Below are positions 4,387 through 4,839 of a DNA stretch of 5,076 nucleotides, one piece after another. Source of the DNA: a virus. Its lineage: Duplodnaviria; Heunggongvirae; Uroviricota; Caudoviricetes. Both the position numbers and the translations under genes were made by a program. Numbering within the stretch: position 1 is the first letter of the stretch; every line of letters begins with the position of its first letter. The DNA lies in the IMG/VR virus record IMGVR_UViG_3300018478_000044; one strand, written 5' to 3'. The notes under the pieces were generated by a model. It was not told the origin of the DNA. It was given only the letters and a program-made list of their open reading frames with translations, and did no database searches.

Positions 4387-4584
4387 ATGTCTAGCGGAAA
4401 CACAAACAACAAATCAGCAAAGAAAAACATTCGATTCCCGCACGAGCTTATAGATGGGATTGATGCCAGTGTTGAACAAGAAAAATTAACTAATCCTAGT
4501 GCTAATTTTTCCGCATGGGTCTTAGATGCCTGTGGACGCAAATTAAAATATGAACAGCGCCGGAAGGCCAAAGAGCAGGAGTAA
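4387..4584 (+). CDS. Small 65-aa ribbon-helix-helix-like DNA-binding protein, candidate repressor
   Basis: ATG at 4387 with SD GAGGT 6 nt upstream. KNIRFPHELIDGID (beta-strand-like alternation), ASVEQEKL (helix A), then SANFSAWVLDACGRKL (helix B, fitting the S-x-x-F-x-x-x-A-(I/V/L) pattern) resembles the CopG/Arc/MetJ layout. Divergent from the operon and adjacent to the palindromic operators. Confidence 0.55.
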   Translation: MSSGNTNNKSAKKNIRFPHELIDGIDASVEQEKLTNPSANFSAWVLDACGRKLKYEQRRKAKEQE

Positions 4585-4602
4585 CCGTCACCAGCGCCGT
4601 GG

Positions 4603-4622
4603 TGCGGTGAACTGCGGTGAAC
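4603..4622. repeat. Perfect tandem direct repeat TGCGGTGAAC x2
   Basis: 4603-4612 and 4613-4622 are identical 10-mers, in the 57-bp spacer between the two plus-strand small ORFs. Confidence 0.7.
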
Positions 4623-4641
4623 TGGGTTACAGGTATCTACG

Positions 4642-4839
4642 ATGACTAACAAATCATTAAAGAAATTATCCTCATCCAGGAAAAAACAACGCAAAAACGC
4701 GGTAAGCGAACAAGAACAGGAGAGATTCGCGCCATGTGCGTTTGTCCTTGAGAAGTTCTTAAAAGAGTACAGGCGCACAAAAATGGGATCGCATACCTGG
4801 AAAACATCGCAGTATGGCGATGCTAAAGAGCAGGAATAG
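4642..4839 (+). CDS. Hypothetical basic 65-aa protein, possible diverged paralog of the preceding gene
   Basis: ATG at 4642 with a weak SD (AGGT, 7-nt spacer). Same length as the preceding ORF and the same C-terminal ending (..AKEQE stop; nucleotides AAAGAGCAGGA in both). Partial similarity SEQEQERFAPCAFVLEKFLKEY versus SVEQEKL..FSAWVLDACGRKLKY. Lys/Ser-rich N-terminus. Confidence 0.4.
   Translation: MTNKSLKKLSSSRKKQRKNAVSEQEQERFAPCAFVLEKFLKEYRRTKMGSHTWKTSQYGDAKEQE

What the first reader, a model, noticed from the sequence alone, without database searches (positions are those of the whole stretch)
4387..4839. Two same-length small basic proteins in tandem; the first RHH-like, the second a possible decayed paralog
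Both are 65 aa, both end in AKEQE, and they share a patch (SVEQEKL..FSAWVLDACGRKLKY versus SEQEQERFAPCAFVLEKFLKEY). Only the first keeps a convincing RHH strand-helix-helix layout and a strong SD. The second may be a diverged duplicate, a partner or anti-repressor, or not translated at all.
Basis: partly seen in the sequence, partly recalled or inferred. Interest (0 to 1): 0.45.

Follow-up and report, generated by a model that had tools for sequence, protein, structure and literature searches.

The report
Satellite-island repressor gene plus accessory ORF
The first small gene is a YlcI-family DNA-binding regulator that probably switches off the replication genes of a phage-parasitic island of E. 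coli; the second is a real but unrelated small accessory gene that shares only a copied 3' end with the first, and both lie backwards inside a long stop-free reading frame on the other strand.

Summary
Both ORFs are real: 65 codons each, both ending in AKEQE. They are not detectable paralogs: BLASTP E=1.9, shuffle p=0.16-0.29, profile-profile probability 0.3%. Their similarity is at DNA level and sits at the ends, chiefly a 27/29-nt direct repeat of the ylcI 3' end (p~0.002). This repeat flanks a 255-bp orfB module that is absent from some relatives.

orfA is a YlcI/YnfO (DUF3950) protein with a ribbon-helix-helix-like model. The window belongs to a Gram-negative phage-inducible chromosomal island of the EcCICFT073 type.

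Three TGTGCGCACA palindromes overlap back-to-back promoter-like hexamers between ylcI and the icd-primase operon. Across relatives, eight YlcI N-terminal types go with eight different repeat sequences in the same layout. I infer that YlcI is the island's operator-specific repressor.

orfB (phrog_21027, Escherichia only, in about 22% of complete E. coli genomes) follows ylcI variants of at least five N-terminal types after a 57-69-nt spacer (57 nt in most). It shows purifying selection in its own frame. Its function is unknown.

Unexpectedly, both genes lie antisense inside a stop-free minus-strand frame of 300-536 codons that ends in Icd. This frame is conserved across genera, starts at the upstream gene's stop codon, and resembles the P4 eta/kil arrangement.

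The parts
4387..4584 (+). orfA = ylcI, a YlcI/YnfO (DUF3950) family protein of 65 aa. Predicted ribbon-helix-helix regulator with a variable N-terminal half and a conserved QRRKAKEQE tail.
4642..4839 (+). orfB, a 65-aa small basic ORF (phrog_21027). Lys/Arg-rich N-terminus, conserved core RFAPCAF.LEKFLKEY, variable tail. An optional accessory gene downstream of ylcI.
   Evidence: PHROG E=4.7e-45 and no Pfam or NCBIfam hit. 43 clusters, all Escherichia. Only 17 representatives in 1.84 billion proteins. Found after YlcI variants of at least five N-terminal types (59, 65 and 99-101 aa) with a 57-69 nt spacer. dN/dS as. Core found in 1220 of 5426 complete E. coli genomes.
4567..4595 (+). Left copy of the direct repeat GCCAAAGAGCAGGAGTAACCGTCACCAGC: the last 6 codons of ylcI, its stop codon and 11 nt beyond.
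   Evidence: This tail is conserved at the end of every YlcI variant examined.
4822..4848 (+). Right copy of the direct repeat GCTAAAGAGCAGGAATAGCCCACCAGC: the last 6 codons of orfB, its stop codon and 9 nt beyond. In islands without orfB this version directly ends ylcI.
4585..4641 (+). 57-nt spacer between ylcI and orfB, with a conserved AGG(G/A) motif 7-10 nt before the orfB ATG. It has no terminator, so the two genes are probably one transcript.
4280..4289 (.). Operator-like palindrome O1, TGTGCGCACA, at or just after the predicted -10 of the leftward promoter.
4303..4312 (.). Operator-like palindrome O2, TGTGCGCACA, inside the spacer of the leftward promoter.
4350..4359 (.). Operator-like site O3, TGTGCGCCCA, just after the predicted -10 of the ylcI promoter.
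4291..4318 (-). Predicted leftward sigma-70 promoter for the icd operon: -35 TTGACA (4318-4313), 16-nt spacer, -10 TTTAAT (4296-4291). Read by eye.
   Evidence: Sequence. A TTGAC(A/G)/TTGAA hexamer at the same place in all 12 relatives, each with its own repeat in the spacer. Not found by the consensus scan.
4322..4350 (+). Predicted rightward promoter for ylcI-orfB: -35 TTAACT (4322-4327), 17-nt spacer, -10 TATTGT (4345-4350). Read by eye and weak.
   Evidence: Sequence. Not found by the consensus scan.
4930..4958 (+). Intrinsic terminator of the ylcI-orfB transcript: GGCGACC...GGTCGCC followed by TTTGTTTT. It has no U-run on the other strand.
   Evidence: Conserved in all relatives with a compensatory change (GGCCACC...GGTGGCC).
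3978..5015 (-). Long stop-free minus-strand ORF of 345 codons from ATG 5015-5013. It runs antisense through orfB, the spacer, ylcI and the promoter region, and is in frame with the nested Icd-like gene (ATG 4181, stop 3978-3980). It resembles P4 eta/kil.
4218..4251 (-). Conserved hairpin in the icd leader: ACGCCCTGCA, 14 nt, TGCGGGGCGT.
   Evidence: Compensatory changes at 2 pairs.

Best explanation
The window is the regulatory and replication part of a Gram-negative phage-inducible chromosomal island (PICI) of the EcCICFT073 type.

orfA is the island's YlcI-family ribbon-helix-helix protein. It most likely binds, as a dimer or higher oligomer, the three TGTGCGCACA palindromes that overlap two back-to-back promoters. 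In doing so it would repress the leftward promoter of the icd...DUF4222-primase replication operon and limit its own synthesis. The variable N-terminal half of YlcI would set which operator sequence is recognised, so each island type has its own specificity, as with phage immunity types.

orfB is a separate, lineage-restricted accessory gene, co-transcribed with ylcI and ended by the terminator at 4930-4958. It is translated into a small, very basic, mostly helical protein. It is not a diverged YlcI. Its AKEQE end and the 9 nt after its stop codon are a second copy of the 3' end of ylcI. This direct repeat brackets the 255-bp orfB module, and recombination across it can add or remove orfB. My most likely guess for orfB's activity is a nucleic-acid-binding or YlcI-associated modulator made while the island is quiescent; that step is weak inference.

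Both genes lie antisense inside a long translated frame that starts at the stop codon of the upstream bro/alpA-side gene and ends as Icd. By analogy with the nested eta/kil genes of phage P4, translation of this frame would keep AlpA-driven read-through transcription from terminating before the replication genes. That transcription would at the same time oppose ylcI-orfB expression.

Shown here: family membership of orfA; absence of detectable paralogy; the repeat and the module structure; covariation between YlcI type and operator type; selection on both small frames; the stop-free frame. Inferred: DNA binding, repression, co-transcription, anti-termination and the function of orfB.
For: Island type. 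The window encodes ProQ/FinO, a D5/P4-type primase, DUF4222 and an Icd-like protein. The 98%-identical relative L001 shows integrase, HTH, Rha/AntA/BRO, orfB, ylcI, icd, DUF4222, primase, SSB, FinO and PerC. EcCICFT073 itself carries the same cassette with a 57-nt spacer.

Operators. Three copies in the window. Eight YlcI N-terminal types pair with eight repeat types: TGTGCGCACA, GTGTTSAACAC, TGAAACACAC, TGTATATACA, TGGTATTCA, GTGAAATACAC, GTGGGCCACAC and TGTAAG/CTTACA. All share one layout: -35, repeat in the spacer, -10, repeat at +1, repeat upstream. Islands with the same YlcI type share the repeat (W/L004; L005/L008/L012; L003/L009). Islands with the same orfB type but different YlcI types do not (W, L006, L010, L012).

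orfB module. Islands without orfB join the ylcI tail directly to the sequence that follows orfB here. For selection on orfB. Its start codon and SD-like motif are conserved.

Antisense frame. There are zero stops in 13 of 13 E. coli loci, and frames of more than 200 codons in 31 of 45 loci from other genera, against 5-60 codons in the other two frames in all but three of those loci. The per-locus chance probability is 2e-4 to 3e-7. An ATG with an SD lies within 22 nt of the upstream stop codon in 11 of 12 loci. In alignments, gaps in the plus-noncoding part are mostly multiples of three.

P4 precedent and AlpA biology are described in PMC10111431 and PMC6092414.
Against: No experiment here shows DNA binding, repression or translation.

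The consensus promoter scan found no sigma-70 site in 3900-5076. Both promoters are my own reading, and the ylcI one is weak (8 of 12 matches).

The published description of these islands calls them unidirectional and names AlpA, an activator, as the key regulator; it did not identify a repressor.

Some relatives carry P4-type C4/isrK immunity RNAs as well as ylcI (L004, L008), so YlcI need not be the only or main immunity factor.

The dN/dS margin for orfB over the antisense frame is small in several pairs, and the pairs are not independent. The orfB model has low confidence.
Confidence: 0.55

Rival explanations
1. orfB is a decayed or neofunctionalised tandem duplicate of ylcI. A 255-bp unit (gene plus spacer) duplicated; the ends stayed similar and the middle diverged beyond recognition.
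For: Start-to-start and stop-to-stop spacing are both exactly 255 nt. There are colinear, in-frame DNA matches at the N-terminus (16/18), at EQE (9/9) and at the tail. More distant orfB relatives also end in D.K.Q(E/K)-like tails.
Against: There is no protein or profile similarity. The conserved YlcI residues (RFP, FS.WV..C) are not matched in register. A rival out-of-register RFP/RFAP match shows how easily short motifs recur in these proteins.

Ends that are 85-93% identical next to a middle at chance level do not fit uniform divergence.

The N-terminal match holds only between one YlcI type and one of three orfB N-terminal types. The spacer does not resemble the sequence after orfB beyond CACCAGC. 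The predicted folds differ.
Confidence: 0.12
2. orfB is not a functional gene. Its frame is open only as a by-product of the constraints that keep the overlapping minus-strand frame free of stops, and of DNA- or RNA-level conservation.
For: The wobble positions of orfB and of the long antisense frame coincide, so low dN/dS is partly shared. The SD is weak. There is no known domain. The tail changes frame between variants. PGAP often annotates nothing, or the opposite-strand gene, at this position.
Against: dN/dS is lower in the orfB frame than in the antisense frame in 26 of 29 pairs.

The ATG sits at a fixed distance after ylcI, and an AGG(G/A) motif is kept in spacers of different sequence.

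Three unrelated N-terminal segments all keep an ATG-initiated open frame of 57-66 codons.

Parts of the long frame that do not overlap plus-strand genes show no amino-acid conservation (w 0.3-1.5). The conservation at orfB is therefore better explained by orfB itself.
Confidence: 0.15
3. YlcI is a real RHH protein but is not the repressor of the icd-primase operon. It might be an antitoxin-like or packaging-related factor, as its position next to terminase genes in lambdoid prophages could suggest, and the palindromes might be bound by another protein.
Against: The repeat sequence covaries with the YlcI N-terminal type and with nothing else nearby: Icd is nearly invariant and the orfB type is uncoupled. 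The repeats overlap the promoter hexamers directly next to ylcI. No toxin partner is present.
Confidence: 0.15
4. Only the long minus-strand ORF is real (as in annotations that call a 250-470-aa 'Icd-like protein'). ylcI and orfB would then be shadow ORFs on the opposite strand.
For: More than 1100 database proteins correspond to the long ORF. The PICI literature draws these islands as unidirectional. The frame is strongly non-random.
Against: The ylcI frame is better conserved than the antisense frame in 98.7% of pairs. YlcI homologs occur without any long antisense ORF. ylcI has a strong SD and a family-wide conserved start. The long ORF's sequence is not conserved outside the overlaps.
Confidence: 0.03

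Closest known systems
YlcI/YnfO family (NCBIfam NF041551; Pfam PF13132 DUF3950), e.g. YlcI of E. coli K-12 prophage DLP12
   Same: orfA scores above both curated thresholds. It shares the NNKS..IRFPHE and NFSAWV.DAC motifs and is of similar length.
   Different: Here the gene sits at a divergent promoter in a PICI, antisense inside a long ORF, and ends in the island-specific QRRKAKEQE tail. In DLP12 it lies before the terminase gene and has no long antisense ORF. No function has been published for the family in the library searched.
Small ribbon-helix-helix repressors (CopG, Arc/Mnt, and RHH antitoxins such as TacA and VapB)
Nested eta/kil genes and immunity region of satellite phage P4 (Forti et al. 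1999, as summarised in PMC10111431)
   Same: A long ORF is coupled to the upstream alpA-like gene. It spans the immunity and promoter region and contains, in frame, a short cell-division or killing gene at its end. In P4, translation of this frame prevents termination. The C-terminus of P4 Eta weakly resembles the Icd-like domain, and relative L008 has Phage_ASH plus Icd like P4 Eta.
   Different: In the window the long ORF has no Phage_ASH domain and no C4/isrK RNA. Instead it runs antisense through two protein-coding genes, an arrangement not described for P4.
Stl/Rpr master repressors of Gram-positive PICIs (SaPIs)
   Same: A repressor gene transcribed divergently from the excision and replication operon of a phage satellite.
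   Different: Stl proteins are larger HTH proteins and are relieved by helper-phage proteins. No homology with YlcI. For Gram-negative PICIs the existence of such a repressor is stated to be unclear.
Accessory genes co-transcribed with a prophage repressor (lambda cI-rexA-rexB); from my own knowledge
   Same: orfB lies directly downstream of the putative repressor, shares its terminator, is optional, and would be expressed in the quiescent state.
   Different: No sequence or structural relation. No defence-system model matches orfB.

Membership tests
YlcI/YnfO (NF041551 / PF13132) | orfA scores above the curated HMM cut-off | tested here: met
   NF041551 59 bits against 30; PF13132 28.3 bits against 25.
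YlcI/YnfO (NF041551 / PF13132) | orfB scores above the curated HMM cut-off, or its family profile matches the YlcI profile | tested here: not met
   No hit for orfB or for any of 23 family members. hhalign probability 0.3%.
Ribbon-helix-helix superfamily | N-terminal beta-strand followed by two helices (orfA) | tested here: inconclusive
Ribbon-helix-helix superfamily | Dimer that inserts a two-stranded sheet into the major groove of repeated sites | not testable with these tools
   Only indirect evidence: three 10-bp palindromes, and covariation of repeat type with YlcI type.
Gram-negative PICI (EcCICFT073 type) | int, alpA, primase and an origin after pri, in that order, with a size of about 10-18 kb | tested here: met
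   The window has the primase followed by TGTCTACC iterons at 520-870. Relative L001 and EcCICFT073 show int, HTH/AlpA, the cassette, icd, DUF4222, primase, SSB and PerC.
Gram-negative PICI (EcCICFT073 type) | Induction and packaging by a helper phage | not testable with these tools
   Shown for EcCICFT073 in PMC6092414, not for this island.
P4 eta/kil-type nested translated frame | A long ORF containing, in frame, a short C-terminal gene with its own start | tested here: met
   The 3978-5015 frame contains the Icd start at 4181 preceded by GAGGT. In L006 the long frame instead stops 20 nt before the icd ATG.
P4 eta/kil-type nested translated frame | Start codon coupled to the stop of the upstream alpA-side gene | tested here: met
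   ATG 5015-5013 overlaps the BRO-N TAA at 5010-5008, with GGAGG upstream. The same holds in 11 of 12 loci.
P4 eta/kil-type nested translated frame | A CI/C4 immunity RNA and a seqA-like site inside the frame | tested here: not met
   No C4 or isrK match in the window at E<=1. Both are present in P4, L004 and L008.
P4 eta/kil-type nested translated frame | Sequence homology to P4 Eta (Phage_ASH domain) | tested here: not met
   No Pfam hit in the window's long ORF. BLASTP against P4 Eta gives E=0.28, confined to the Icd-like end.
P4 eta/kil-type nested translated frame | Translation of the frame suppresses transcription termination | not testable with these tools
   Only compatible evidence: the frame is kept open but its sequence is not conserved.
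Tandem paralogs | Similarity above chance along the body of the two genes | tested here: not met
   The similarity is confined to the ends.

The most novel reading that the evidence does not exclude
YlcI is the hitherto unidentified master repressor and immunity-specificity determinant of Gram-negative PICIs. The ylcI-orfB cassette, together with the long translated frame running antisense through it, would form a convergent-transcription switch. AlpA-driven, ribosome-protected read-through from the integration side would silence the repressor cassette and carry on into the replication operon. The frame would be kept free of stops only so that it can be translated.
Probability: 0.3. Interest if true: 0.75.

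Novelty: new variant of a known kind. Interest (0 to 1): 0.5.

Why it matters
The founding paper on Gram-negative PICIs states that whether a global repressor exists in these islands is unclear. It also describes the islands as unidirectional (PMC6092414).

This analysis points to a counter-oriented RHH gene with type-specific operators on the replication promoter. The experimentally studied EcCICFT073 carries the same cassette. The question is therefore directly testable: delete or swap ylcI, and run gel shifts on the palindromes.

The analysis also shows that two conserved genes can sit antisense inside a frame that is kept open across several genera without conserving its protein sequence. 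This is a clean case for studying translation that may be selected for its own sake, for example as protection against termination.

Finally, it explains why automatic annotation of this locus flips between a long 'Icd-like protein' and three short genes.

For the finding as written, the main lesson is negative. Equal length and a shared C-terminal pentapeptide do not indicate paralogy here; they reflect a recombination joint.

Tried and rejected
Protein and profile tests
- BLASTP, shuffle tests and hhalign for paralogy all came back negative.
- Pfam, NCBIfam and PADLOC found nothing for orfB or its family.
- A profile search of the PDB was empty for YlcI and gave only chance-level hits for orfB.
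- Foldseek of the YlcI model against the PDB found no match.
- An exhaustive profile search of 1.84 billion representatives with the orfB family found only 17 proteins. None links to a known family.

RNA searches
- An Rfam search for a P1/P4-type C4 or CI RNA in the window found none. Such RNAs exist only in some relatives.

Comparisons with phages
- tblastn of the Icd region against 50,697 phage records gave one hit, a 16.5-kb record. P4 was not found.

Promoter scan
- The consensus scan found no promoter, so both promoters in this report are my own reading.

Literature
- Searches for a YlcI/DUF3950 function and for a Gram-negative PICI repressor found nothing relevant.
- The P4 eta/kil paper (PMC94026) is not held, so I cite it only through PMC10111431.

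Not possible with these tools

Rejected ideas
- I considered that the equal 65-aa length reflects a duplication unit. I rejected it as evidence because the partner lengths vary in relatives.
- I considered that ylcI is a shadow of the long ORF. I rejected this on the two-frame dN/dS comparison and on the K-12 context.
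Full report
**1. What is in the window**

The window carries the following features.
- Minus strand: a ProQ/FinO-family gene (3-503); a non-coding stretch full of TGTCTACC iterons (about 520-870); a D5/P4-type primase (887-2692); DUF4222 (2689-2979); several small ORFs; and an Icd-like gene (3978-4181).
- Plus strand, transcribed the other way: the two ORFs of the finding, orfA (4387-4584) and orfB (4642-4839).

A 98%-identical E. coli relative (L001) shows the whole element next to yicC: integrase, HTH, Rha/AntA/BRO genes, orfB, ylcI, icd, DUF4222, primase, SSB, FinO and PerC. The experimentally studied island EcCICFT073 has the same order. It also has the same counter-oriented pair, a 59-aa YlcI and a 57-aa orfB homolog 57 nt apart. 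The element is therefore a Gram-negative phage-inducible chromosomal island (PICI).

**2. The observation**

Both ORFs are 65 codons and both end in AKEQE. Both are basic, with pI 9.25 and 9.94.

The claimed shared protein patch is not above chance:
- BLASTP gives E=1.9.
- BLOSUM62 local and global scores are reached by 29% and 16% of shuffles.
- Aligning 41 YlcI homologs against 23 orfB homologs gives an hhalign probability of 0.3%.
- No orfB family member hits DUF3950 or any RHH model.

The similarity that does exist is in the DNA and sits at the two ends:
- 4567-4595 versus 4822-4848 match at 27 of 29 positions with a 2-nt gap. Only 0.16% of dinucleotide shuffles score as well.
- 4408-4425 versus 4648-4665 match at 16 of 18 positions, p=0.036 alone.
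- A chained alignment gives p=0.001, but I chose that statistic after seeing the data.

**3. Why both end in AKEQE**

Every YlcI variant examined ends in (Q)RRKAKEQE or a close variant of it (...KESE in L008; truncated to ...KAKE in L002 and ...KAKG in L009), whether it is 59, 65 or 99-102 aa long.

In islands without orfB (L002, L003), that tail is followed directly by CCCACCAGCAAGCCAGCACACTGATCACATTGCCCACCAGCC. This is exactly the sequence that follows orfB in the window.

In islands with orfB, the ylcI tail reads ...AAAGAGCAGGAGTAACC(A/G)TCACCAGC. Then come a 57-nt spacer and orfB. orfB in turn ends in ...AAAGAGCAGGAATAGCCCACCAGC.

So a 255-bp orfB module is bracketed by a direct repeat of the ylcI 3' end. 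The last six codons of orfB are a second copy of that end. Recombination across the repeat can remove the module, or it may once have inserted it.

Other orfB variants carry a 1-nt indel before this point. They end in ...WQRTEPD and stop at a TGA that lies downstream of the AKEQE stop in the window. More distant relatives, however, keep D.K.Q(E/K)-like ends.

Equal length is a coincidence: the partner lengths vary.

**4. What orfA is**

orfA passes the curated thresholds of NF041551 (YlcI/YnfO) and PF13132. It has 115 homolog clusters across Enterobacterales.

The 205-bp region between ylcI and icd holds three copies of TGTGCGCACA, at 4280, 4303 and 4350. Read by eye, a leftward promoter consists of TTGACA (4318-4313), a 16-nt spacer and TTTAAT (4296-4291). 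One palindrome lies in its spacer and one at the start site. A weaker rightward promoter (TTAACT, 17 nt, TATTGT) is followed by the third copy. The consensus scan reported no promoter, so this reading is inference.

The comparative evidence is stronger. All 12 relatives have a TTGAC(A/G) or TTGAA hexamer at the same place and the same layout. The repeated sequence, however, differs with the YlcI N-terminal type: eight protein types go with eight repeat types.
- Islands that share a YlcI type share the repeat (W/L004; L005/L008/L012; L003/L009).
- Islands that share an orfB type but differ in YlcI type do not (W, L006, L010, L012).
- Icd is nearly invariant.

The simplest reading is that YlcI recognises these repeats, represses the icd-primase operon and regulates itself.

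The literature searched gives no function for YlcI. [quoted passage not shown]

**5. What orfB is**

orfB matches phrog_21027 (unknown function) and nothing else. Its family is small: 43 clusters, all Escherichia, and only 17 representatives among 1.84 billion proteins. Even so, its core is present in 1220 of 5426 complete E. coli genomes.

The family is mosaic. It has three N-terminal types and two tails around a conserved core, RFAPCAF.LEKFLKEY.

orfB always follows ylcI after 57-69 nt. An AGG(G/A) motif lies 7-10 nt before its ATG, in spacers of different sequence. There is no terminator between the two genes. The terminator at 4930-4958 is conserved, with a compensatory change.

dN/dS of the core is 0.2-0.35 at dS 0.7-1.5. 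The AlphaFold model is two helices at low confidence.

I conclude that orfB is a translated, optional accessory gene of the ylcI operon and not a decayed YlcI. What it does is unknown. My best guess is a nucleic-acid-binding or YlcI-associated modulator made while the island is quiescent.

**6. The unexpected part**

The ORF listing reported a 348-codon minus-strand ORF (3978-5024) that ends as Icd.

In the window and in 12 related E. coli loci, one minus-strand frame has no stop at all for 300-536 codons. This is the frame whose wobble positions coincide with those of ylcI and orfB. It runs from the 3' end of the upstream bro/ant/alpA gene, through the region after orfB, orfB, the spacer, ylcI and the promoter region, into icd. 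The other two minus frames have 11-22 stops.

Shuffling puts the chance of this at 2e-4 to 3e-7 per locus, and the loci have largely different sequences.

The same holds elsewhere. In 31 of 45 ylcI loci from Serratia, Klebsiella, Xenorhabdus, Proteus, Morganella, Gilliamella, Orbus and other genera, this frame is open for more than 200 codons. The other frames run 5-60 codons in all but three loci.

Further properties of the frame:
- An ATG with a good SD lies within 22 nt of the upstream gene's stop codon in 11 of 12 loci. In the window, ATG 5015-5013 overlaps TAA 5010-5008 and has GGAGG upstream.
- Alignment gaps in the plus-noncoding part are mostly multiples of three.
- The amino-acid sequence is not conserved between genera.
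- Where no plus-strand gene overlaps it, dN/dS is 0.3-1.5 with no third-position excess.
- Databases hold more than 1100 versions of this ORF, often named 'Icd-like protein' and 250-470 aa long. PGAP switches between that annotation and the three short genes.

ylcI is not a shadow of this frame. Its own frame is the better conserved one in 98.7% of 156 pairs (0.18 against 0.31). K-12 ylcI has no long antisense ORF. For orfB the margin is smaller: 26 of 29 non-independent pairs.

**7. How it probably works**

P4 offers a precedent, as summarised in PMC10111431.
- In P4 the long gene eta contains the short gene kil in the same frame.
[quoted passage not shown] P4's eta frame carries Phage_ASH and a weakly Icd-like end, and relative L008 has the same Ash plus Icd combination. 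In EcCICFT073, AlpA expression alone triggers excision and pri-dependent replication.

I therefore propose the following.
- In the quiescent island, YlcI (with orfB) is made from the rightward promoter and shuts the leftward icd-primase promoter.
- After helper-induced AlpA expression, transcription from the integration side enters the long frame.
- Coupled translation protects that transcript from termination. The transcript crosses the cassette antisense, opposing ylcI-orfB expression, and continues into the replication genes.

Only the anatomy and the selection signatures are shown here. Every mechanistic step is inference.

The window has no C4/isrK RNA. Some relatives have both such RNAs and ylcI, so the two kinds of control can coexist.

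**8. Verdict**

The RHH reading of orfA is supported. The paralog reading of orfB is not.

The finding as written is modest. Its surroundings are more interesting: a candidate repressor with type-specific operators in a class of islands said to lack a known repressor, and two genes nested antisense in a frame that is kept open without conserving its sequence.

Limits:
- There are no experiments.
- The dN/dS pairs are not independent, and some are near saturation.
- The promoters were read by eye.
- The structural evidence is weak.

Noticed in passing
window 3978-5076 (-); also L001-L013, L014-L058, L060: One minus-strand frame is free of stops for 300-536 codons in the E. coli loci. It runs antisense through ylcI, orfB and the 'intergenic' promoter region and ends as Icd. 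It is conserved across genera, but its amino-acid sequence is not. It starts at the stop codon of the upstream gene.
   Followed up: yes
window 4218-4251 and about 4187-4203 (-): Two hairpins lie in the icd leader. The first (ACGCCCTGCA...TGCGGGGCGT) is present in all relatives, with compensatory changes at two pairs. The second (CGATA...TATCG) lies just before the icd Shine-Dalgarno. Their function is unknown and there is no Rfam match.
   Followed up: partly
L004 1728-2394, L008 1712-2378, L061 (P4) 8420-8692: P4-type C4 and isrK (CI/seqA-like) RNAs occur in some islands that also carry ylcI-orfB. They are absent from the window and from most relatives, so RNA-based and protein-based control modules can coexist.
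   Followed up: partly
window 520-870: A dense array of direct and inverted TGTCTACC / GGTAGAC(A/G)G iterons lies in an AT-rich stretch just after the primase gene. This is presumably the island's replication origin. Its inverted repeats gave spurious weak Rfam hits (miRNA, plastid psbM).
   Followed up: no
window 3-503 (-): A ProQ/FinO-family RNA-chaperone gene lies next to the origin (PF04352 E=4e-23). Its role in the island is unknown.
   Followed up: no
window 2984-3184, 3177-3410, 3403-3786, 3761-3985 (-): The small ORFs between icd and DUF4222 overlap start to stop. They hit related PHROGs: phrog_340 twice, and phrog_2512 three times in different parts. This suggests internal duplication or domain shuffling among them.
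   Followed up: no
window 4603-4622: A perfect tandem TGCGGTGAAC x2 lies in the ylcI-orfB spacer. The 98%-identical relative L001 has TGTGGCGCAC there instead, so the duplication is recent and specific to this window.
   Followed up: no
L002, L003, L006, L007, L009 (ylcI genes): Some YlcI variants are 99-102 aa. They have a conserved extra C-terminal segment (GEIARRQAEGSGENPLVSSLDALAQVEKIGVKAAEEIGQLV.VAREEL) joined to different N-terminal DNA-binding halves. This may be an oligomerisation or signal-sensing module.
   Followed up: no
E. coli genome hits H32-H43; L004 2907-3237; L012 2361-3281: Automatic annotation of this locus is inconsistent. The same DNA is called 'hypothetical protein' (orfB), nothing at all, a pseudogene fragment, or a long 'Icd-like' or 'BRO-N' protein on the opposite strand.
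   Followed up: partly
window 4836-4848 and 4868-4880: AT(A/T)GCCCACCAGC occurs twice after orfB, and CACCAGC occurs once more after ylcI (4589-4595). Part of this conserved non-coding block is present in about 700 E. coli genomes. Its role is unknown; it may be a recombination joint or a binding site.
   Followed up: no
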